Of a stretch of 64,000 nucleotides of DNA, positions 35,730 through 62,978 are shown piece by piece (position 1 is the first letter of the stretch; each line of letters opens with the position of its first letter). The position numbers were made by a program, and so were the translations under genes. Under the pieces are notes generated by a model. It saw only the letters and a program-made list of their open reading frames with translations, searched no databases and was not told the DNA's origin. The DNA lies in contig CAWEXO010000014.1 in NCBI GenBank assembly GCA_963813025.1, positions 1-64,000 on the forward strand. Reading direction: 5' to 3'. This DNA comes from an uncultured Verrucomicrobiae bacterium. Lineage in GTDB: Bacteria > Verrucomicrobiota > Verrucomicrobiia > Chthoniobacterales > JAFAMB01.

Positions 35730-36782
35730 ATGGACTTCATTGTGGTCGGAATTGGTCGTTGGGGCAGAGAGTGGGCTGAACTCTTGCAGGCTCACCCGCT
35801 CGCCTCGGTGGCGTCGACCGTCGACGTCAGCGAAGCAGCCGCCAAATGGTCACAGGAAACTCTTGGAATTCCTTGCTTTCCGAGCCTAAGGGAAGCTATC
35901 GAAAAAGCGCCGGCGGATGCTGTGTTAGTGGTCACCAATCCTGGCCAGCACAAGCCGGTCGTTCTGGAAGCGCTTCGCTACGGAAAACATGTGTTGGTTG
36001 AGAAGCCGATGGTAACTTCGATTGAGGAAGCCGACGAGATTGCGGCTGCGGCCGAACGTTCAACCGGTAAGGTCATGACTGCTCAAGGTTACCGATTCCT
36101 ACACTCTGCTGGTTTCATTCGCGAACAGCTGGCTGCTGGCGTTATTGGCGAACTGAAGGGCGTCAAGGTCCGGTTCCGGCGCCACGTACCTGATCTCATT
36201 GCCAATCCCGAACATCCAATCTTTGCTCTACCACATTCCATCCTTCTCGATATGTCGGTCCATCATTTTGATCTCCTCCGTTACATGACTCAGCTGGAGG
36301 CTATCAGTGTGGTAGCGATGGAGCATGACACTCCGGATAACGCATTTAAGCATCCTTCCAACGCGATCTGTTTCGTTCGGCTGCGACAAGACGTTCCTGT
36401 CGTATGGGACGGAGACTGGTGCGCTCGTGGACCTGTGACTTCATGGGAAGGCGAGTGGCAGTTCATCGGCAATAGAGCACGCCTGTTTTGGGAAGGGAAT
36501 ATAGATGGAAAAAACCTGACTTCGGTCCAGTTGGAGGTGCCAGGAGAAAAACCACAGAAACTCCTGGCACACGAGCCGATTTGGGAGCGACGCCTTCCCG
36601 TCTTGGAACACTTTATTAAGAGCATTAAGCGGGGCAAACAACCGGAACCTGGTGTTCTTGATAACCGAAAGACACTTGCCATCGTGTTTGGCAGTCTGGA
36701 GTCGTTGGTTACGAAGGCCGAGGTCCGGCTGGAAGATAGTGCTCCCGCACACAGCTCTTTCCGGCCGGAACTTCTGAAGTGA
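35730..36782 (+). CDS. Gfo/Idh/MocA-family oxidoreductase
   Basis: VVGIGRWG, GKHVLVEKPM, LLDMSVHHFD. Confidence 0.9.
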   Translation: MDFIVVGIGRWGREWAELLQAHPLASVASTVDVSEAAAKWSQETLGIPCFPSLREAIEKAPADAVLVVTNPGQHKPVVLEALRYGKHVLVEKPMVTSIEEADEIAAAAERSTGKVMTAQGYRFLHSAGFIREQLAAGVIGELKGVKVRFRRHVPDLIANPEHPIFALPHSILLDMSVHHFDLLRYMTQLEAISVVAMEHDTPDNAFKHPSNAICFVRLRQDVPVVWDGDWCARGPVTSWEGEWQFIGNRARLFWEGNIDGKNLTSVQLEVPGEKPQKLLAHEPIWERRLPVLEHFIKSIKRGKQPEPGVLDNRKTLAIVFGSLESLVTKAEVRLEDSAPAHSSFRPELLK

Positions 36783-36984
36783 ACCTGGATTCTCCGAAAA
36801 GCCTTGGTTGACGCTGTATGGTGGTCTGCAGGCGATCAAGCGTACGTCGTGCCCCCTTGTTAACTTGCCAGAGAAAAGACCCTGGTTCCGGCGCCAAGGA
36901 ATTAGGTCCGCAGTGATGAAGCGGTGCCATTGGGTTGAACCTATGAGCCTGTGCTGGTTTGCCCAAATCAAGTTCACCGAATGG

Positions 36985-37222
36985 ACTCCTAAGAAACTGG
37001 ATAAGGCCGGTCAAATAAAGTTAGCTCTTCCTCGCCAAACAGCCCCAATGAGAACTGGATGGTTTCTTGCCGCAACAAGAACCGCAGCGGTTCTGGCGAA
37101 CTCCTAAGAAACTGGATAAGGCCGGTCTAATAAAGTTAGCCTTCCAAGAGCCAAACAGCCCCCAATCGAGAACTCGGATGGTTTCTTGCCGCAACAAGAA
37201 CCCGCAGCGGTTCTGGCGAACT
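36985..37222 (-). repeat. Two tandem 115/120-bp non-autonomous IS110 mini-elements
   Basis: ACTCCTAAGAAACT at 36985, 37100, 37220; each unit also carries a ~41-nt copy of the IS110 left-end sequence (38874-38914). Confidence 0.85.
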
Positions 37223-37223
37223 C

Positions 37224-38615
37224 CTAAGAAACTAAATCCGTGGCTGGGTCTAGAGGCGTGAGTTGGAGTCCGAATTCTTTGGCTCGTCGGCTGAGATTGT
37301 GAAGTAGGCGGTCTTTGTATTTTTTCTCGTAGTAGAGTTGCCCTTGCTCGACATAGGCAGCTCCGAACTTGAGCATGCGATAGAACAAGCGTGCCAGTTT
37401 ATGAGCTCCGGCGTTGATGGCGGTGGGTGCCCCCAATCGGGCTTTGATGCGGCGGATAAAAGCGCCGATGGCCGTCTTACTTTGCATGGCTCCTTGGGCC
37501 GCCAGCCGGAACATGGCCGCCGCGCGATTCTTGGTTTTTCTGGGGCTGGAACTGAGCAGTTTGCCGCCACTGATGCGATTGTCCGGACAGAGTTTAAGCC
37601 AGGAGCAAAAGTGTTTTTCGCTTTTCCAACAGTTCATGTCTAAACCCGTTTCCGAAATGATGACTTCCACCGCCAAGGTGCTCAAGCCAGGCAACTGACT
37701 CAGATCGACACCACAAACGCTGGCCAGATGCGCTCGGCGCTGCAGGGCTAGGCGAACTTGGGCCGACCGTGCTTTGGCCGCCCCGCTTTGCTCGAGGGCT
37801 TGCTCCAAATCTAGTTTAGTGTCGAATTGCTCAAGTTGTTGCTCAATCTTGCTTTCGCAGGCGGTGATCTTGAGCTGGTAGGTGTCATAGAGTTCCAGGG
37901 CCGTTTGCAAGGCGAAGAGATGCTCGGCTCGGTAATCTCCCTGTAAGGCTTTGACGATCTGATCAGTGGATGCTTTCACTTGGGGGTGTTTCATCTGGGC
38001 AAGCTTGAGCGGATTGCGTTCTCCGGCCAAAATCGCCCGAATCATCGCCATGCCACTATAACCGGTGATGTCGCTCAACACGCGGTGCACTTGGATATTC
38101 ATTTCGGTTAAGGCCTTCTGCATGCGTAACACATGGCTGCTGCAGTCCTTAACCAAGGTGTCGCGCAGGCGCAGGAAGCTGCGCAAGACGCAGACCTCGT
38201 CCTTGGGTCGGAACGAGCCGTTTAAAAGACCAAAGGTGTGGAGTTGTTGAAGCCATTGGCAGTCCGAGACGTCGCTTTTGCGTCCAGGCAGATTCTTGAC
38301 ATGAGCTGCGTTGACCAATTTTACCTCCAACCCTCTCTGCTCCAGAATCTGGAACACCGGTATCCAATAAACCCCCGTTGATTCCATCACTACGGTCTCA
38401 ATGTGGTGTTCGCTCAGCCAGTCAGCCATCCGCTGCAGATCGCTCGTAAAAGGGCCAAACTTGCGCACCGTTTCTGAGCCGCGGTCTTCGGGAATGGCCA
38501 CCAGGTGAAAATTCGCCCCGATATCGATTCCTGCGGCCTTGAGATTGATCCGTTCCAGAACACTCCGGTGAGTTTTTGATTTGTTCTTTCGCTTGGTCGT
38601 GGTTTTCTTTGCCAT
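37224..38615 (-). CDS. IS110-family (DEDD/bridge) recombinase
   Basis: GIDIG, MESTGVYW, KSDVSD RuvC-like motifs; C-terminal WLKLCPDNRISGG with conserved Ser; intact 463 aa. Confidence 0.95.
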   Translation of the reverse strand: MAKKTTTKRKNKSKTHRSVLERINLKAAGIDIGANFHLVAIPEDRGSETVRKFGPFTSDLQRMADWLSEHHIETVVMESTGVYWIPVFQILEQRGLEVKLVNAAHVKNLPGRKSDVSDCQWLQQLHTFGLLNGSFRPKDEVCVLRSFLRLRDTLVKDCSSHVLRMQKALTEMNIQVHRVLSDITGYSGMAMIRAILAGERNPLKLAQMKHPQVKASTDQIVKALQGDYRAEHLFALQTALELYDTYQLKITACESKIEQQLEQFDTKLDLEQALEQSGAAKARSAQVRLALQRRAHLASVCGVDLSQLPGLSTLAVEVIISETGLDMNCWKSEKHFCSWLKLCPDNRISGGKLLSSSPRKTKNRAAAMFRLAAQGAMQSKTAIGAFIRRIKARLGAPTAINAGAHKLARLFYRMLKFGAAYVEQGQLYYEKKYKDRLLHNLSRRAKEFGLQLTPLDPATDLVS

Positions 38616-38644
38616 ACCTCTCTTGGGTTAGATGTTGTTCTTGC

Positions 38645-38870
38645 TTTCACACTGCAGCGCATCGGCCCGAGTTGGTAGATAGAGAGAAATCTCCTAAACA
38701 GGATAGCTCCAGATCGGCAAACAACCCGATCTGGAGCTTCGCTAATGCAACAACCAAAACGCTCGGAACCAAACTAGCTATCGGGCATAAAGCTCCAATG
38801 CCACACCGGTCTTAACTGCCGACCCACTGCTGCCTACTTTCTACGTCGAGATGCCCAAGGCAATCAATCC
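38645..38870 (-). ncRNA. Putative bridge RNA in the IS110 5' non-coding region
   Basis: About 300-nt leader with a perfect 13-bp hairpin (38705-38738) and TTAGGAG / AACT segments matching the donor junction; boundaries inferred. Confidence 0.6.
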
Positions 38871-39372
38871 AGTGTTTCTTGCCGCAAAAAGAACGCGCAG
38901 AGTTCTGGGGAACTAAGCCTGTAGCGACGGCCAGTTGCGGTCTGCGCGTCTTCCTGCGGCGGCGAGGGGACGAAAAAGGCAATGGAGGTCGTTTCACGGT
39001 AATACTCGTTCTGTCGCAATCCGCTTGGTTCGAACTCAAGCACTAGCCGCCTAATCGGAACTGCTCACCTGGTCTGGAAGCGCGTCAAATAGGCAAATCA
39101 TAGAGGAGGTTCAGACCAGAACTATACCAAGCCGTGGAGATGGTTCTCCGGGGCGGAAAGACAGTCAGGGAAGTGGCTGAAAATCTTGGGGCAAGCCAAT
39201 ATTCGAGCGGCTATTATCAATGGGTGGAGCGGCGGGACAAGCCCGAAGGCCGGGTGCAGGTTCGAGCTCTGTTATTCTCTGACCCAAATTCCAAAGTTAC
39301 GCGGTAATTGAATTGGCTCAACCCCCAACTGCCGAAGCCGTTCGCCGCCGTGCCACCCATGGAGGATGAGAG

Positions 39373-39462
39373 ACTGCTGGCTGCCTGGTGTGGTCGTAGC
39401 TGACGGCGTCGCGGTGCCGGTTCGGGGGTTATGTTCCAGGTCAGCATCCGAATTTTCCAAAT
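39373..39462 (-). pseudogene. C-terminal scrap of a paralog of the DUF4440 gene at 661-1150
   Basis: WKIRMLTWNITPEPA.ATPSATTTPGS versus WKIPTLTSNITPEPAATPSPTTTPSS; clear DNA similarity. Confidence 0.7.
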
Positions 39463-40442
39463 ATCGCCCTCATGAACGTTATCCTTACGAAGGCGGCCGT
39501 AACAATATTCTCAACGATGGTCGACAATATAAGCTTGCAGCGATCGAATTTGGCGAGCTCGGAAGTTACGCGGACGCCGATAAAGGCGAGCTCAATAACA
39601 CGATTCAGTTATTGAAAAACACAGAACGGCCATTGCTGGTCGTATACATCCATGGATGGCTCAATAACGCCACATCGGGCGACCTCGGCAAGTTTAAAGG
39701 GTTCCTAAGTTCGGCTGTCCCAATCCAGACAAGTGAAAATCCATCACTATAATGTGGTTGGCGTCTATTTTGCCTGGCCTGGTAAAACTCTCGCAATTCC
39801 TTACCTCCAATATTTGACCTTCTGGAACCGGAAGCAAGCAGCGAAACGGATCGCCAGCAATGGCGATTGTCTGGATGCCATCGAGCAGCTTTCCCAAACG
39901 GCTCGACTCCACCAAAACAACTATGTTTTCTTAATTAGGTCATTCATTCGGGGGGCTGATTCTGGAACGAACCGTGGAACACACTATGCGCGCGTGGCAG
40001 GGCCAGAAAGTGAGGCCACCATGGGATCTGGCTCTGACAACGACCGTTTTCGGGTGATTCGGACGCTTTCGACTACAACCTGGAGAACAATCCAGTAGGC
40101 GGAATTTTCTTCACGAGCGCTCCCAAGGATTCCGAGACTGCTGCGGAAGCAGGGAAACAATCGCGGCCAGCAGTGGCCGCTCCAAAAACTCAGCTGCAAG
40201 CTTGGCAAATTCAATTTGTACGAGATCACGACAAATTTATCGGTGTTCACGTGCCGTTTTGGATCGTCCGCGTTCCATCCGATATTATCGACAATCACGG
40301 CGGTATCTGGAGCGACAATAATATGGCACTGATGGCCGCGATCTTCCGCATGCACCGGCCAATACTGCCAAACAACGTTATCGCTCCAGCCAAATCCTAT
40401 GTTCTACCATCGCGGGTCGAGCTGAAGCAGAAACCACATTGA
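39463..40442 (+). pseudogene. Alpha/beta-hydrolase (esterase-like), frameshifted and partly deleted
   Basis: LVVYIHGWLNNA, VVGVYFAWPG, shifted-frame GHSFGGLILE nucleophile elbow near 39940, IIDNHGGIW. Confidence 0.7.
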
Positions 40443-40487: not shown

Positions 40488-42574
40488 TCATCGGTCCGGT
40501 GGGGATACGGTAATGTAACCGTTGGAATCCTTCCCGCCCACGCCATGAACCCAAGCGCGGAGGCTATATTTGGAGGCGGGATTAACCGTGGAAATCTTCA
40601 AGCGAAACTCGTTGTTGTCATACCCCGGACCCGCCGGGGCGAGATGCTCGTCGACGGCCACGGGTTTTCCGTTCTCCAGCATTGCGATCTTCTCCACCAT
40701 TATGGCATTTCCGCTTTGGTAGTTGAAATGTATCTTCCAGCCTCCTGGCACGACCTGCCAGTGACCAGCTTCCGGCAACGGACCAGTGACAACCCAGCCG
40801 GTTATGGGCCACTCGATCGAGGAAGTGCCCGATTCGAGATTCGCCGGGCCCCAACGGAAGGGTAGACCGTCGGGCGTCCTCCCATAATAGTCCAGGTCCA
40901 TGGCGTTCAGACGCTCGAAGTCGTAGCCCAGACGCCTTTGAAAATCTCCAAAATCCCGAGCTTCCTGCGGCGTCCAAGCGACCTCCGCAACGGCACAGGC
41001 GCGAGGCAACAGTTGGTATTGGATCTTGAGCCAGTCCTCCACGTTTTCAGTCCACACATTTCCCTGTATTCCCAGCACCAGCTTTGTCTCTTCTGGAGTC
41101 GCTGCGCGCCCGGGATCGGCGAAAAACCATAGACAGCTTCGAGCGAATTCAACCCTTCGGCTGCGACCGGCTGAGGAACAATCTTGATGTCCGTCTGGTA
41201 GAGATCCAAGAAGAGATGTTCCAGAGGGGTCAGAACGACTGCATTACCATTCTTGAAAGCGGGCTGAGCATACTGGAAGTTGTGCCATACCATTACTGCA
41301 GCGGTGTGGGACAGGCTGCCGCCCATAATATCGTCCCAACCAATCAACTTGCGTCCCTTGCTGTTCAAAAATTGTTCGATGCGATTGATGAACCAGCTCT
41401 CGAGTTGGGCCGTAGTAGTGAACTTGTGCTCTTTCATGAGCTGCTGCGCAAAAGGCGAGGTCTGCCATTGATCAGGAGGCACCTCGTCGCCCCCGATATG
41501 AATGTACTCGGAGGGAAAGAGCTCAATTACTTCCTGCAAAATGTTTTCGAGGAACGTGAACGTCTCCTCTTTTGGCGCATAACAATAGGGATGAACGCCC
41601 CAAGATGTTGCCACCTCGGGATGGTAGTTCGGAATATCAGTGTTTCCGTACTGGGGATAGGAGGCAAGGGCGGCCGCCGCGTGGCCGGGCATCTCTATCT
41701 CCGGAACGATCGTGATAAACCGATCGGCCGCATAGGCGACAATTTCGCGAATATCTTCCTGCGTGAAATACCCACTGTACGGTATGCCATCGCTTAGGCT
41801 CGGATTCCCGAGCACCGGGGAGTGAGCCCGCTGGGAGCCGATTTGGGTCAAAAGCGGGTATTGCTTTATCTCGATGCGCCATCCCTGGTCTTCAGTCAAA
41901 TGCCAGTGCAAGACGTTCAATTTATGGCTCGCCATAAAGTCGAGAATCTGTAGCACCACCTTTTTTCCAGTGAAGTGGCGTCCCTCCTCCAAGAGTAAAC
42001 CCCGCCAGGCAAAACGAGGTTGATCCTGGACGTGCGCGCTCGGGATGGACCAGCAGCAGTTGCGCACTGGTTGTTTCGAGTAGATCGCCGGCGGCAACAT
42101 CTGCATCAGGGTCTGAATCGCATGGAATTGCCCGGCCTCCCCGTTGGAGCGCATCACAATTTTCGTCGGCGTAACATCCAGATCGTATCCTTCAGGTCCG
42201 AGATTGGCCAGAGACGGATCTTTCCGGATCACGATTATGTTCCCGCCCGAGGGCGCGGCGAAATCGAAACCCGTCGCTGGCGAGAGGCCCTGCTTAAGGC
42301 GGCGTGCCGTCTTCTGGCTCGCGGCGTCTGCATCGAAGGCGGTTTCGGGTCCGAGCAGGAATGCGCCTGAACCTTCTGTGAAGGTAACCGGTTTTGGCAC
42401 GAGGTCAGGCATGGTAGCCCAGCCCTGACCAGGCAAGAAAAGAGTGACCCAGATCAGCGGAGGAAGACAGTGAACGAGTCTATTTTGCAACCGATCGACG
42501 ATCTTATCAATGGCGGGTAAGCGCCGGATTATTGGATCACTCCGCAATGTGATCGCTTCTGTTATCGTTTTCAT
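40488..42574 (-). CDS. GH20 beta-N-acetylhexosaminidase with a C-terminal accessory domain, frameshift near 41100
   Basis: DQPRFAWRG, HWHLTEDQGWR, PEIEMPGH, HIGGDE, GIQGNVWTE, PRACAVAEVAW. Confidence 0.9.
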
Positions 42575-42999
42575 GGGGGAGGTATGTTTTACAGGATTTG
42601 GATGAGAGAGCCCGCTGGTCTTAGACGTGGGATAGATCGGACAATCTGACGGGTTTCTATTCGCTATGTATTTCAGTGTGGCATTTAATAAAGCCTCATC
42701 AAAACACATTCCGCCAGCCTTTTGATAGTTGCGTCAATCCCTCCAGTTCAAGATGGGACAAGAAAAAAGTTCGACAGGCCCTTTAAGCCGGACGTGCCGC
42801 GCAGCTTGTTCAAATCAGGATTGACTGCAGCAACGAAGCTTATTAGCCTCAGTCGGTCAGTAAACAAACGAAGCGGTCGAAACGAATTCCAGGCCTACTC
42901 CCCCCTTTAGTACGTCGCAGGTGCTTTAAACAAATCCCTCTATCCCCCTTCAAAGAAAGCCAGCATCGGATCGAAGTCTTTTTGGAAAGAAGAAAAGCA

Positions 43000-44385: not shown

Positions 44386-45511
44386 TACTTAGTTGCTTTA
44401 GTTCTTTATATTTATGAAAAATTATGATTTGTTGGATGGATGGCAACGGGTCGCATCAAACTTTCTGTGGAAAACCGCAAGCTCTTGGAGGGTTGGAGTC
44501 GAGCGCAACGGGTCGAACACCGGCTCAAGGTCAGGAGTCAGATTATCTTGAAGGCGGCAGCGGGCTTGAGTGGACGTGCGATTGCCAAGAGCCTGCGCAT
44601 TCCCGAGGTGACGGTGAGTAAATGGCGGCGGCGCTTTGTGCGCCAAGGCCTGGCTGGCTTGGAAGACGCGCCACGCAGTGGAAAGCCGGCCAAGTATGAT
44701 CAAATGACGGTCAAGCGGGTCTTGGCGCTGCTGGATGAAGATCCACCGGCGGGCTACGGGCGCTGGAATGGGCGACTGCTGGCGCAGAGTCTGGCCGATG
44801 TTTCCTCCGATCAAGTCTGGCGCATTTTGCGCCAACAAGGCATTGAATTGGAACGGCGCCGCAGCTGGTGCATTTCCACCGATCCGGAGTTTGTGCGCAA
44901 GGCCGCTGACATTGTCGGTCTTTATCTCAATCCGCCCCAGAATGCGCTCATCTTGGCCATTGATGAAAAACCAGCCATTCAAGCCCTGGAAAGAGCCCAA
45001 GGTTGGATTCGCTTGCCCAATGGCAGGGCGCTGACGGGTTTTAGCCACGAGTACAAGCGCCATGGCACCTCCACTCTCTTTGCCGCCCTCAACATTGCCA
45101 GCGGCCAAGTGCAGGCTGGTCATTACCGGCGCCAGCGCCGACGGGAATTCCTGGAGTTTATGAACCAGGTAGTTGCCGGAAATCTCGACAAAGAAATTCA
45201 TGTGGTCTTAGACAACCTTGCGACCCATAAGCCAAAGCAAGATCGCTGGTTGAAGGCTCACCCCAATGTGCATTTTCATTTCACTCCAACCCACGCTTCT
45301 TGGCTCAACCAGATTGAGATCTGGTTTAGTATCTTGAGCCGCCAAGCCCTCCAGGGGGCAAACTTCACCAGCGTGGCAGAGCTGCGCAACGCCATCGACA
45401 CCTTCATCAAGAACTACAATAACAATGCGGCTCCCTTCGAATGGACCAAATCCCAGGTACATCAGGGGAAAGTCGCCATACATATAACTAACTTACGCAA
45501 TTAGGCACTAG
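44382..45511 (+). mobile_element. IS630-family element
   Basis: TIRs CTAGTACTTAGTTGC / GCAATTAGGCACTAG around the transposase. Confidence 0.9.
44440..45504 (+). CDS. IS630-family transposase
   Basis: HTH, DEKPAIQA, YKRHGT, DNLATH, SWLNQIE. Confidence 0.95.
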   Translation: MATGRIKLSVENRKLLEGWSRAQRVEHRLKVRSQIILKAAAGLSGRAIAKSLRIPEVTVSKWRRRFVRQGLAGLEDAPRSGKPAKYDQMTVKRVLALLDEDPPAGYGRWNGRLLAQSLADVSSDQVWRILRQQGIELERRRSWCISTDPEFVRKAADIVGLYLNPPQNALILAIDEKPAIQALERAQGWIRLPNGRALTGFSHEYKRHGTSTLFAALNIASGQVQAGHYRRQRRREFLEFMNQVVAGNLDKEIHVVLDNLATHKPKQDRWLKAHPNVHFHFTPTHASWLNQIEIWFSILSRQALQGANFTSVAELRNAIDTFIKNYNNNAAPFEWTKSQVHQGKVAIHITNLRN

Positions 45512-47389
45512 CCCTTAAGGAAGCGTGATTTAACCGCATGAGGGGACAAAAAAGCTCGAAATGTGCTTCGATGCTTGGTTTGCTGGGAAGTGCAAAGCTA
45601 ACCAGACCAAGGAAGAAAGGCATTTCGAGTGAGTAGAAGTTATCCGAAGATCCTGCGTAATCGCAAGCGCCGAATCGAACGTCGTTTGGATCCTGAGCGG
45701 CGATGGAGTGAACAGCCGACACCGATGCTGAGTGCCAGCAACATCCATTTTGAGATGGCTGAACGTAACCGGGCGGTAAACTACGGCGGTATTGGCGCGA
45801 TCCATCTAATGGGGCAGCGGCTAGGATTAGCCGAGGAGATCGATGGGCGGGTGCAGCTTCTCAAGCGGCATTTGCCCTATCACGAAAGCGATCATGTGTT
45901 GAACCTGGCCTACAATGCACTGTTGGATGGCCAACGGCTGGAAGATATCGAGTTGCGGCGCAACGATGAAGCTTTCCTGGAGGGTCTGGGCGCCCAACGT
46001 ATCCCTGATCCGACTACCAGCGGAGATTTTACCCGGCGCTTTGACCAAGGCTCGATTCTGGATTTGCTGGAAGCCATCAACACGACTCGGCAGCGGGTGT
46101 GGAAAAAGCAGCCTCGGGCTTTTCTTGCCCAAGCCTTTCTTGATATCGATGGCACAATGGCTCCGACTTTAGGGGAGTGCAAAGGCGGGGTAGGGCTTTC
46201 CTACAAAGGGATCTGGGGTTATGCGCCCTTGATTGTCTCGTTGGCAAACACCCGAGAAGTGCTTTATCTGGTTAATCGGCCGGGCAACGTCGTCAGCCAT
46301 GAAGGATGTGTGCCATGGATTGAGCGGGCCATCGAGTTGGTGCGCCCCCATGCCGGTGAGATCACGCTGCGCGGGGACAGCGATTTTACGCTCAGCGCCG
46401 AGTTAGATCGCTGGGATAGCCAAGGGATCAAATTTCTCTTTGGCATGGATGCTCATCAGAAAGTAGTGCAACTGGCCGAAGCCTTGCCGGAAGCAGGCTG
46501 GCAGCCGCTGGAACGCTTGGCTCGCTATGAAATTGCCACTGAGCCGCGACGTAAGCCCCTTCGGGTCAAGGAGGCAATTGTGCGGTTTAAGGGGTACTTG
46601 AACAAAAAGTTGGTGGGCGAAAGCGTGGCCGAGTTTAATTATCAGCCACTCAAATGCGGACGCAGCTATCGGCTGGTGGTGGTGCGCAAAAACATCAGCC
46701 TCCAGAAAGGGGAAACGGTGCTCTTGGAAGAGATTAGATACTTCTTCTATCTCACCAACCACACCAATTATCGGGCCCAAGAGATCGTGGCGCTGGCCAA
46801 CCAGCGTTGTGACCAGGAGAATGTGATCGAGCAACTCAAAAATGGGGTTAACGCCATGCGCATGCCGGTAGACGATCTCCTCAGTAATTGGGCTTACATG
46901 GTCATCAGTGCCCTGGCCTGGAATCTCAAATCCTGGTATGGACTGCTTATGCCCAATCGGCAAAGGGGGCTGGAGCTAGTCCAGATGGAGTTCCGGCGCT
47001 TCCTGCATGCCATTGTGTTGTTGCCGGCACAGATCGTGCGCAGCGGTCGGAGGATCATTTATCGGATCATGGGTTACAACAGTTGGCTAAAAGACTTCTT
47101 CGCTGCCTGGGAAAATCTTCGGCGGATGGCACCTGCCTGAAGCAGGCCTATTGACGATACTCTAGGCGGAACGCTCAAATTTCCAAGGCAGAGCTATGCC
47201 CTGGCGAGGCATGTATCGGCGCCCAAAATCGCACTAACTCCAAAAACTTTCATTGTTTTGGCCTGAGAAAAGCAAACCTGGGCCTTCGGTCGCCAGAACC
47301 AACCGGATTTGCACCATTTTCTAAGAATTTGCCTGGCCGAACGGGAAGTTCGTCGCGTCGCATTCGGAACTCGCTTATTTTGAGACTAG
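45508..47389 (+). mobile_element. IS1380-family element flanked by CTAG direct repeats
   Basis: Imperfect TIRs (AAGCG core) with CTAG at 45508 and 47386. Confidence 0.75.
45629..47140 (+). CDS. IS1380-family transposase
   Basis: IPDPTT, LDIDGT, GYAPL, RPGN, LRGDSDF, RCDQENVIEQLK. Confidence 0.9.
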   Translation: MSRSYPKILRNRKRRIERRLDPERRWSEQPTPMLSASNIHFEMAERNRAVNYGGIGAIHLMGQRLGLAEEIDGRVQLLKRHLPYHESDHVLNLAYNALLDGQRLEDIELRRNDEAFLEGLGAQRIPDPTTSGDFTRRFDQGSILDLLEAINTTRQRVWKKQPRAFLAQAFLDIDGTMAPTLGECKGGVGLSYKGIWGYAPLIVSLANTREVLYLVNRPGNVVSHEGCVPWIERAIELVRPHAGEITLRGDSDFTLSAELDRWDSQGIKFLFGMDAHQKVVQLAEALPEAGWQPLERLARYEIATEPRRKPLRVKEAIVRFKGYLNKKLVGESVAEFNYQPLKCGRSYRLVVVRKNISLQKGETVLLEEIRYFFYLTNHTNYRAQEIVALANQRCDQENVIEQLKNGVNAMRMPVDDLLSNWAYMVISALAWNLKSWYGLLMPNRQRGLELVQMEFRRFLHAIVLLPAQIVRSGRRIIYRIMGYNSWLKDFFAAWENLRRMAPA

Positions 47390-62914: not shown

Positions 62915-62978
62915 GCAGTGCCAGTGCTAGTGCTAGTGCTAGTGTCAGTTGTCAGTTGTCAGTTGTCATCGGTCATCG
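62915..62978 (+). repeat. Short tandem repeats: hexamer (CTAGTG-like x5) then heptamer (TCAGTTG-like x5)
   Basis: gcagtg ccagtg ctagtg ctagtg ctagtg tcagttg tcagttg tcagttg tcatcgg tcatcg. Confidence 0.8.

What the first reader, a model, noticed from the sequence alone, without database searches (positions are those of the whole stretch)
36985..38914. IS110 bridge recombinase trailed by a tandem array of mini-donor elements built from its own two ends
Seen: on the minus strand the recombinase ends GTTTCTTAGGAG. Two units follow (120 and 115 bp), each starting with a diverged ~41-nt copy of the element's left end (TTCGCCAGAACCGCTGCG(G)GTTCTTGTTGCGGCAAGAAAC vs TTCCCCAGAACTCTGCGCGTTCTTTTTGCGGCAAGAAAC at 38874-38914). 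Each unit ends with the right end AGTTTCTTAGGAG. All four junctions share an AG(T) core, and the ~60-nt unit interior is not an obvious copy of the transposase or leader. Known: IS110 elements excise as circles, lack canonical TIRs and use an RNA to recognise the RE-LE donor junction. Inference: these are non-autonomous, RNA-guided passengers accumulating head-to-tail at one site. Each internal junction recreates a donor site, giving a potentially expandable, excisable cassette array. I know of no description of this exact arrangement, but cannot search.
Basis: partly seen in the sequence, partly recalled or inferred. Interest (0 to 1): 0.85.

Follow-up and report, generated by a model that had tools for sequence, protein, structure and literature searches.

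The report
Gene-less mini-elements stacked behind IS110
The two short repeats behind this RNA-guided jumping gene are copies of a tiny gene-less passenger element that most likely borrows the jumping gene's enzyme and guide RNA to move; the same layout has been described in Pseudomonas putida, so this is a new example of a known kind.

Summary
The two units are altered copies of a 122-bp non-coding element with five copies at three loci in this genome. The other three are identical, stand alone after the same TA(G/A)CTAG target as the 13 IS110 copies, and two of them split a mobA-like gene. Homologous minis occur in four more genomes of the family. The leader's target and donor guides covary with insertion sites and element ends across 42 related leaders, and in genome G052, whose guides differ, most minis follow the changed guides. 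Mobilisation in trans by the bridge recombinase is therefore very likely, though not shown by experiment. The arrangement is not new: ISPpu9 with MITEPpu9 (ssr9) has the same 41-nt/14-nt ends, AG core, orphan copies and tandem pairs behind the transposase (PMC8450116, PMC12288879), and this scan noted a similar array elsewhere (e1-2430423). Corrections: the core is AG, the proposed empty site carries 8 extra bases, and no cargo function is evident. The more surprising by-product lies in relatives: 12 of 42 target guides spell the right end of sister IS110 elements.

The parts
37221..38914 (-). Complete IS110-group element from the left core AG (38913-38914) to the right end; one of 13 copies in the genome
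   Evidence: 12 copies at 98.7% identity or more (two interrupted) and one variant at 87.8%; the window copy differs from the consensus of 10 close copies by 3 substitutions and no indel
37224..38615 (-). IS110 DEDD recombinase, 463 aa; likely catalytic residues D31, E78, D115, D118 and S349
   Evidence: PF01548 E 6e-20 and PF02371 E 5e-7; NF033542 247 bits against cut-off 140; weak match to IS621, 8wt6; motif positions, roles inferred from IS621 (PMC11208158)
38874..38912 (-). Left end ('A box'), ending in the subterminal repeat AAGAAAC
   Evidence: shared by all IS copies and minis; AAGAAAC or a close variant lies 30-40 nt after the core across the clade
38774..38780 (-). Left target guide TAGCTAG of the predicted bridge RNA, followed by TT (38772-38773), which equals the first two bases of the element
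   Evidence: position; matches the left-flank consensus of 15 sites; covaries with the left flank across 30 distinct leaders
38705..38738 (-). 13-bp perfect hairpin between the target and donor guides
38691..38697 (-). Left donor guide TTAGGAG of the predicted bridge RNA
   Evidence: equals the element's own last 7 nt in 33 of 35 distinct leaders; position
38670..38673 (-). Candidate right donor guide AACT (complement of AGTT); assigned by eye
   Evidence: position; not tested by covariation
37221..37233 (-). Right end ('B box') AGTTTCTTAGGAG, overlapping the stop codon; with unit 1 it forms a full donor junction
37101..37220 (-). Mini-element copy 1 (120 bp): the 122-bp form with a C-to-G change at base 4 and two single-base deletions
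36986..37100 (-). Mini-element copy 2 (115 bp): same C-to-G change, 7 deleted bases in 5 events and 2 more substitutions
38915..38922 (-). 8 extra bases at the left junction relative to homologous empty sites (placement approximate); origin unexplained
   Evidence: alignment with L178, L179, L182 and L185
36778..36987 (+). Decayed C-terminal fragment of an ATP-dependent DNA ligase gene, the interrupted host sequence; homology continues on the far side of the IS to about 39000
   Evidence: PF04679 E 0.0052, below the curated cut-off; DNA alignments across the joined flanks

Best explanation
The units are copies of a 122-bp non-autonomous element of the MITEPpu9 type. It keeps only the ends of the resident IS110, so the recombinase loaded with the IS's own bridge RNA treats it as donor DNA: it is copied or cut out as a small circle whose junction (TTAGGAG|TT) is read by the donor guides, and inserted at TA(G/A)CTAG read by the target guide, leaving AG on both sides. 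Shown by sequence: independent insertion at the IS's target, gene disruption, and guide-site covariation. Inferred: circles, RNA expression and mobilisation in trans. Stacks form because junctions stay usable. Most likely history here: a mini inserted at TCGCTAG in a ligase remnant and was duplicated in place (about 0.6, from the shared C-to-G change). The IS joined either by re-using the left junction, which keeps the whole left target (about 0.4), or it was there first and a mini entered its right end by a donor-side half match (about 0.35), or IS and mini arrived as one composite circle (about 0.2). The stack is selfish DNA, not a cargo cassette system.
For: Five copies at three loci; the three outside the window are identical and follow TTAGCTAG or CTAGCTAG. 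Removing the 244-bp dimer at C14:104508-104751 restores one open frame whose first half is MobA-like, PF12804 E 3e-19. Left flanks of 15 sites carry 1.65 bits at six positions; right flanks at most 0.54 bits. Donor guide equals the right end in 33 of 35 distinct leaders (shuffled mean 6.4, maximum 16 of 10000 shuffles); target guide matches the left flank at 122 of 150 positions (shuffled mean 59.5, maximum 81). In G052 the leaders read TTAGGAG / TTAAGAG; of its 13 minis listed, 5 end in TTAAGAG and follow TTAGGAG, 5 end in TTAGGAG or TTAGGAA and follow TAGCTAG-like sites, none ends in TTAGGAG after TTAGGAG, and 3 fit neither class. Homologous 114-126-bp minis in G052, G049, G051 and G044. The C13 mini lies between CTAGCTAG and the left end of another IS110 lineage (87.5% over 48 nt to L144), as left-junction re-use predicts. 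Precedent with experiments: ssr9-only circles need the ISPpu9 transposase (PMC12288879); half-match insertion by IS621 (bioRxiv 2026.08.31.748434); tandem repeats as by-products in 3 of 96 colonies (bioRxiv 2025.10.25.684509).
Against: No circle, transcript or mobilisation was observed. No listed contig bridges the array in the one run that holds this stretch. The changes in the two units are mostly deletions, which looks like long-read consensus error as much as decay, so the age order (unit 2, unit 1, IS) is weak evidence. The inferred original target TCGCTAG matches the guide at 6 of 7, and the present left junction is disturbed by 8 unexplained bases. The right target guide was not identified. 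G049, G051 and G044 hold minis but no close recombinase (best 44-56% identity; assemblies 65-93% complete). Related leaders are not independent, and the search patterns were tuned by eye.
Confidence: 0.88

Rival explanations
1. The stack in this window, or at least the differences of its units from the 122-bp form, is an assembly or consensus artefact, for example from a population in which this site carries different numbers of units.
For: Unit changes are dominated by deletions (7 deletion events against 3 distinct substitutions); the flanks show several indels against homologs; another IS copy, C14:486487, has 22 differences, mostly indels; the one contig of run X1 laid on unit 1 shows two extra T, as in the 122-bp form, though it may come from another locus.
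Against: The adjacent 1.7-kb IS has no indel; the other tandem pair (C14:104508-104751) is letter-perfect, so tandem structure alone does not cause errors; both window units share a private C-to-G change; mixed stacks occur in G052. About 0.07 that the stack itself is false, about 0.35 that the unit differences are errors.
Confidence: 0.07
2. The units are a local, immobile duplication of the IS ends, or a fixed extended right end.
For: The two window units share a private change, which points to duplication in place; tandem non-coding repeats next to IS110 genes are common (468 events in bioRxiv 2026.08.14.744561).
Against: 12 of 13 IS copies lack the unit; 3 of 5 units lie at loci with no IS copy and follow the target motif; the interior does not derive from this IS; the unit's left end is closer to the 88% variant (92.5% against 87.5% over 40 nt).
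Confidence: 0.02
3. The mini is kept because it regulates the IS, as a small RNA like Ssr9 or as a decoy that soaks up recombinase. This could hold in addition to mobility.
For: Ssr9 is such an RNA in the closest known system (PMC8450116); the interior is recognisably conserved across two genera.
Against: No sigma-70-like promoter in the units (a crude scan); folding no better than shuffles (z from -0.78 to 0.64); no conserved structure in the interior; no similarity to the leader on either strand.
Confidence: 0.15
4. The minis are moved by a different IS110 lineage rather than by the adjacent recombinase.
For: Remnant left ends of a second lineage exist in this genome (C13:343106, C13:653600, C14:344800), and its relative in G051 has the same target guide TAGCTAG (L144). 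Earlier scan notes mention other IS110 families in this genome (not checked).
Against: The G051 relative's donor-guide position reads TGGAGAG-like rather than TTAGGAG (read by eye); tblastn finds no other related recombinase here at E 1e-3; the mini's ends match the resident guides exactly. The assembly is only 80% complete.
Confidence: 0.05

Closest known systems
MITEPpu9 (ssr9 module) of ISPpu9, IS110 group, Pseudomonas putida KT2440, KBS0802 and NCTC13186 (PMC8450116, passages; PMC12288879, introduction, results, discussion and part of the supplement)
   Same: Gene-less module bounded by the IS's own 41-nt left box and 14-nt right box, AG core shared at internal junctions, found directly behind the transposase, as orphans at the same target, and in tandem pairs both behind tnp and alone.
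   Different: Unrelated box sequences by eye; target is a short TA(G/A)CTAG motif, not a REP; only 1 of 13 IS copies carries the module (5 of 7 in KT2440); no sign of a small RNA or of similarity to the leader; family spread over at least two genera, whereas ssr9 was found in three near-clonal strains. Protein similarity to the ISPpu9 transposase was not tested.
IS621 bridge RNA system (PMC11208160, PMC11208158, PMC13626964; passages)
   Same: DEDD plus Tnp recombinase, long non-coding left end with target and donor guides, dinucleotide core, donor can be moved with bridge RNA supplied in trans.
   Different: 463 aa against about 326 aa, AG instead of CT core, 7-nt left guides as detected here, almost no right-target conservation, a 7-bp subterminal repeat, no hybrid promoter by consensus scan, and two guide-adjacent bases that match the element's own left end, which is not the handshake pairing described for IS621.
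Expanded IS110 loci with tandem non-coding repeat units (bioRxiv 10.64898/2026.08.14.744561; abstract, sections 5, 8, 10 and passages; figures and supplements not seen)
   Same: Tandem non-coding units next to the transposase (468 events) and re-insertion into occupied loci.
   Different: Their unit boundaries mostly match the left donor only, with complete donor pairs essentially absent; here every internal junction is a complete donor and the unit also moves on its own. They state that insertion does not regenerate a target; here the left junction keeps nearly all the target information.

Membership tests
IS110 family, IS110 group (the autonomous element) | DEDD RuvC-like domain plus Tnp domain with catalytic serine | tested here: met
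IS110 family, IS110 group (the autonomous element) | Long non-coding left end, short right end, no terminal inverted repeats, shared dinucleotide core | tested here: met
   297-nt left end, right end overlapping the stop codon, AG core at 14 of 15 sites
IS110 family, IS110 group (the autonomous element) | Bridge RNA with left target and left donor guides that covary with target and donor | tested here: met
   (sequence covariation only)
IS110 family, IS110 group (the autonomous element) | Right target and right donor guides | tested here: inconclusive
   AACT is a candidate right donor guide by eye; no consistent right target guide; right flanks at most 0.54 bits
IS110 family, IS110 group (the autonomous element) | Expressed bridge RNA and circular intermediate | not testable with these tools
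   only contigs of DNA runs were available
MITEPpu9-type non-autonomous IS110 module | Short gene-less element bounded by both ends of the cognate IS, sharing the core at junctions | tested here: met
MITEPpu9-type non-autonomous IS110 module | Orphan copies at the cognate IS's target, plus copies behind tnp and in tandem | tested here: met
MITEPpu9-type non-autonomous IS110 module | Module-only circles that depend on the transposase | not testable with these tools
   needs outward PCR or raw reads
MITEPpu9 itself (ssr9) | Encodes a small RNA complementary to the IS's antisense RNA | tested here: inconclusive
   no promoter match, fold or leader similarity; no RNA data
MITEPpu9 itself (ssr9) | Sequence homology of the end boxes to those of ISPpu9 | tested here: not met
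   boxes in Table S2 of PMC12288879 compared by eye: same lengths, AG core and inverted subterminal motif, different sequence
Classical MITE (terminal inverted repeats, target duplication) | Terminal inverted repeats | tested here: not met
   no terminal repeat; only a 7-bp subterminal repeat
Integron-like or CRISPR-like cassette array | Variable cargo or spacers between conserved recombination or repeat units | tested here: not met
   all five units in this genome are copies of one sequence

The most novel reading that the evidence does not exclude
In this AG-core IS110 clade, target guides have been reprogrammed several times independently to spell the 7-nt right end of sister elements, while the element's own donor guide differs by one or two bases so that it does not target itself. 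These lineages are RNA-guided parasites of their own family; gene-less minis serve them as landing pads and evolve to follow the new guides, which builds mixed stacks of full and mini elements. 12 of 42 distinct leaders have such a guide, needing 7 changes on a quick tree, at least 6 forced by strong branches. In addition, two bases after the target guide match the element's own first two bases in 28 of 30 leaders, so the left junction would stay a 9-nt match and a re-usable site. The window's own element is not end-targeting. Seven searches found no paper describing end-targeting among IS110 relatives; the library lacks most subscription papers and ISfinder notes.
Probability: 0.5. Interest if true: 0.65.

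Novelty: new member of a known kind. Interest (0 to 1): 0.42.

Why it matters
The flagged arrangement is a second, unrelated-looking family of a design so far described mainly from one P. putida lineage, which suggests that such passengers arise repeatedly (a separate one of about 108 bp appears in a cyanobacterial relative). The minis define natural minimal donors: 57-59-bp versions in G052 and G022 are little more than the two end boxes. G052 gives a natural guide-swap experiment that supports RNA-guided mobilisation in trans without bench work. If the end-targeting lineages hold up, they give a tractable system for asking how bridge recombinases tell donor from target when the two differ by one base, which bears on off-target and re-insertion behaviour of bridge editors.

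Tried and rejected
Rfam scan of 36500-39500: two chance-level matches only. Tandem Repeats Finder did not report the array. Folding of single units and of ten aligned minis gave no significant or covarying structure; the one pair with changes on both sides involves the donor-guide base and is not taken as structure. Promoter scan: 1 site against 1.2 expected, inside the CDS, none at the two donor junctions. Sequencing runs: no RNA holder listed; run X1 may be the source sample, is shallow, and no listed contig bridges the array; X2 and X3 gave only short partial matches. The metagenome scan for the 18-nt donor junction gave 8 hits, all without recombinase or end boxes. A search for left-end copies downstream of the recombinase in the fetched relatives found no further IS-plus-mini arrangement among those with enough flank; that test is insensitive, and it missed the stack in G052 because tandem copies broke its coordinate logic. 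An end-targeting guide in the window's own genome was sought and not found (0 matches at up to 1 mismatch; 1 of 301 genomes matched, G052), so it does not explain this stack unless it lies in the unassembled fifth. Two readings of the right target guide (GGTT, or GAGCG before the U run) each fit some flanks and failed on others; left unassigned. I first took the two bases after the target guide for the handshake guide; the published handshake bases lie next to the right guides and pair 5' of the core, so that label was dropped. The careful tree did not finish; the quick tree is used. No ISPpu9 protein was available for comparison; the plasmid search showed generic IS110 labels in the 60 of 304 records listed, and the one Pseudomonas record opened was uninformative.
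Full report
1. The observation. On the minus strand a 463-aa ORF (37224-38615) is an IS110 recombinase: PF01548 and PF02371, NF033542 above its cut-off. It ends in AGTTTCTTAGGAG, and two units of 120 and 115 bp follow, each made of a 40-nt copy of the left end, an interior and the 13-nt right end. This is far beyond chance: unit 1 against unit 2 gives E 4e-38, and all 18 exact copies of GTTTCTTAGGAG in the genome are ends of IS copies or minis.

2. The unit is a separate mobile element. The genome holds 13 copies of the IS (12 at 98.7% or more, two of them interrupted, and one variant at 87.8%) and 5 copies of the unit at three loci. Only the window copy of the IS is followed by units. The other units are an identical tandem pair at C14:104508-104751 and a single copy at C13:343107-343228, all 122 bp and identical. 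They follow TTAGCTAG and CTAGCTAG, the motif that precedes the IS copies. Across 15 sites, six left positions carry 1.65 bits and no right position exceeds 0.54 bits; the core is AG. Removing the pair, with one AG left, restores one open frame whose first half is MobA-like (the second half alone has no significant Pfam match). In the window the host sequence is a decayed ligase fragment (PF04679 E 0.0052, below cut-off). A homolog in G010 reads GGCCGTCGC-TAG-TCCATT, so the original target was probably TCGCTAG, and the window carries 8 extra bases at the left junction.

3. The unit is a family. Of 42 other genomes of the family, 8 have a match. Reading those loci: minis of 114-126 bp occur in G052, G049, G051 and G044 and align over their whole length; minis of 57-59 bp, little more than the two end boxes, occur in G052 and G022; G055 and G050 have complete ISs only; G007 has a weak end-like match only. 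The one genome of the same genus has no match. Named relatives of the recombinase at 79-88% identity are from Verrucomicrobiae, and more distant ones (44-58%) from cyanobacteria and other phyla.

4. The guides. The leader contains TAGCTAG (38774-38780) and TTAGGAG (38691-38697) in a scaffold conserved across the clade. Patterns tuned by eye found guide-bearing leaders in 58 of 81 loci, 42 of them distinct. The donor guide equals the element's last 7 nt in 33 of 35 leaders with a readable right end (shuffled mean 6.4, maximum 16). The target guide matches the left flank at 122 of 150 variable positions in 30 leaders, 13 exactly (shuffled mean 59.5 positions, maximum 81) (the core AG was chosen using the two following bases). 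With the core chosen by the guide instead, those two bases equal the element's first two bases in 28 of 30 (shuffled mean 6.5, maximum 16). Related leaders are not independent, so these controls overstate significance. The right guides were not established.

5. A natural guide swap. The three leaders in G052 read TTAGGAG (target) and TTAAGAG (donor). Of 13 minis listed there, 5 end in TTAAGAG and follow TTAGGAG, as the resident guides predict; 5 end in TTAGGAG or TTAGGAA and follow TAGCTAG-like sites, as the ancestral guides predict, although no such IS is in that 72%-complete assembly; 2 end in TTAAGAG and follow another TTAAGAG end, like the window's stack; and 1 ends in TTAAGAG after an ancestral site, in a four-member stack (57-bp mini, IS, IS, 120-bp mini) where the single TTAGGAG end sits one element further right than expected. 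A further broken locus on C20 was left out of this count. Minis tracking both guides is the strongest sequence evidence that they are moved by the RNA-guided recombinase.

6. How the stack formed (inferred). Units 1 and 2 share a C-to-G change absent from the other three copies, which points to duplication in place; tandem repeats are a known by-product of IS110 excision (3 of 96 colonies; bioRxiv 2025.10.25.684509, passages). For the IS-mini joint there are three routes. Left-junction re-use: the left target survives insertion, the right flank is barely constrained, and the guide matches two more bases into the element; the C13 mini indeed lies between CTAGCTAG and the left end of another IS110 lineage, and divergence falls from unit 2 (8 events) to unit 1 (3) to the IS (3 substitutions in 1.7 kb). 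Donor-side insertion: IS621 inserts at left-donor-only and full-donor sites at low frequency (bioRxiv 2026.08.31.748434, abstract and section 8), and the donor loop alone can drive both reactions in vitro (PMC13626964, passages). Composite circle: shown for ISPpu9. The data do not separate these. The deletion-rich differences may be consensus errors: the one X1 contig laid on unit 1 has the two extra bases of the 122-bp form, but its locus of origin is unknown and nothing listed bridges the array.

7. What the interior does. It has no similarity to the IS or its leader, no stable or conserved fold and no promoter consensus. It is best read as filler of unknown origin between the ends. Its conservation across two genera leaves room for a function that these scans cannot see.

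8. Comparison with what is known. PMC8450116 (passages) describes 41-nt A and 14-nt B boxes joined by AG around ssr9, with tandem ssr9 copies behind tnp in KBS0802 and NCTC13186 and orphan tandem copies. PMC12288879 (parts 1 and 3-7 of 9, supplement part 1 of 3 and passages) shows transposase-dependent circles of tnp alone, tnp plus ssr9 and ssr9 alone, and names the module MITEPpu9. This is the same arrangement as in the window. The lead to ISPpu9 was recalled and then checked in these calls. bioRxiv 2026.08.14.744561 (abstract, sections 5, 8, 10, passages) counts 468 tandem non-coding expansions beside IS110 genes. PMC11208160 and PMC11208158 (passages) give the guide model. The finding works like MITEPpu9 and meets its anatomical definition; it is not MITEPpu9 itself. 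An earlier scan note on other DNA reached the same comparison (e1-2430423; not checked).

9. The by-product. In 12 of 42 distinct leaders the target guide equals one of the 11 right-end or donor-guide heptamers seen in the clade, and the element's own donor guide differs. On a quick, midpoint-rooted tree of 42 recombinases the label needs 7 changes, at least 6 forced by strong branches. Eight of the 12 had a left flank called, and all eight follow a right-end-like box. What lies further left: the end of another recombinase gene in L051 and L091, a possible remnant in L053 (E 0.21), a mini of about 108 bp in L049 (read by eye), and only the box in L045, L056 and L061. Against: L091 follows its own donor end rather than its guide, L051 and one L027 copy differ from the guide by one base, L099 follows its guide heptamer with no box, and L052, L057 and L088 have no flank. 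Searches found no description. Targeting of other transposon ends by IS110-family members, such as IS4321 in Tn21 repeats, is recalled and comes from no call; earlier scan notes report related cases (not checked).

10. Verdict. Real, mobile and very probably RNA-guided in trans, but a new member of a known kind: interest 0.42. The end-targeting lineages among relatives are the part worth a dedicated study.

Noticed in passing
L045, L049, L051, L052, L053, L056, L057, L061, L088, L091, L099, L027; G052 (L120, L194): IS110 relatives whose target guide spells the right end of sister elements while their own donor guide differs; 12 of 42 distinct leaders, several origins on the tree.
   Followed up: partly
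window 38772-38773 and 30 related leaders: The two bases after the left target guide equal the element's own first two bases in 28 of 30 leaders; this is not the handshake pairing described for IS621.
   Followed up: partly
L120:5200-8800 (G052:C42): Four-member stack (57-bp mini, IS, IS, 120-bp mini) in which the TTAGGAG and TTAAGAG ends look swapped, as if strand exchange fell left of the one differing base.
   Followed up: partly
L194 / L136 (G052:C20:117300-117600): A mini and a broken IS joined head to head at the palindrome inside the left-end box.
   Followed up: no
L049:1060-1169: A separate cyanobacterial mini of about 108 bp with the same architecture, inserted at GTGCAAGATATGAG and followed by an end-targeting IS.
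   Followed up: partly
L036, L038-L042, L044, L047, L050, L058, L090 left flanks: Cyanobacterial relatives insert after a conserved (G/C)TGCAAGAT..AG sequence, longer than the 7-nt guide, probably a dispersed repeat.
   Followed up: no
L031, L032: Repeated modules of an IS110 relative with about 270 bp of identical extra DNA between copies on one contig.
   Followed up: no
G000 C13:343106, C13:653590-653630, C14:344762-344804; L144; L026: Left-end remnants of a second IS110 lineage with the same target guide; the palindromic target CTAGCTAG lets elements insert at its left junction in either orientation (same orientation in G000, opposite in G051 and L026).
   Followed up: partly
G000 C14:332938, C13:324362; L123, L167: Four insertions in two genomes are followed by the same small hairpin repeat (CCA(A/G)GGGCTT...CCTTGATATCC), and others lie in AGTGCT-type short tandem repeats similar to window 62917-62968.
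   Followed up: no
window 38915-38922 and about 36937-36944: Two 8-bp insertions relative to ligase homologs flank the stack; the left one resembles native sequence about 35 bp right of the stack. Unexplained.
   Followed up: partly
window 44440-45504 and 45629-47140: Two more transposases: DDE_3 with HTH domains (IS630-like) and DDE_Tnp_1_4 (IS1380-like); family names recalled from the Pfam matches.
   Followed up: no
window 39366-40098 and 40488-42709: Two genes appear split by frameshifts, one a glycosyl hydrolase family 20 gene; pseudogenes or assembly errors.
   Followed up: no
L001:4655-5534 (G000:C14): The mobA-like gene is interrupted by the mini dimer, which may affect molybdenum-cofactor enzymes in this organism.
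   Followed up: partly
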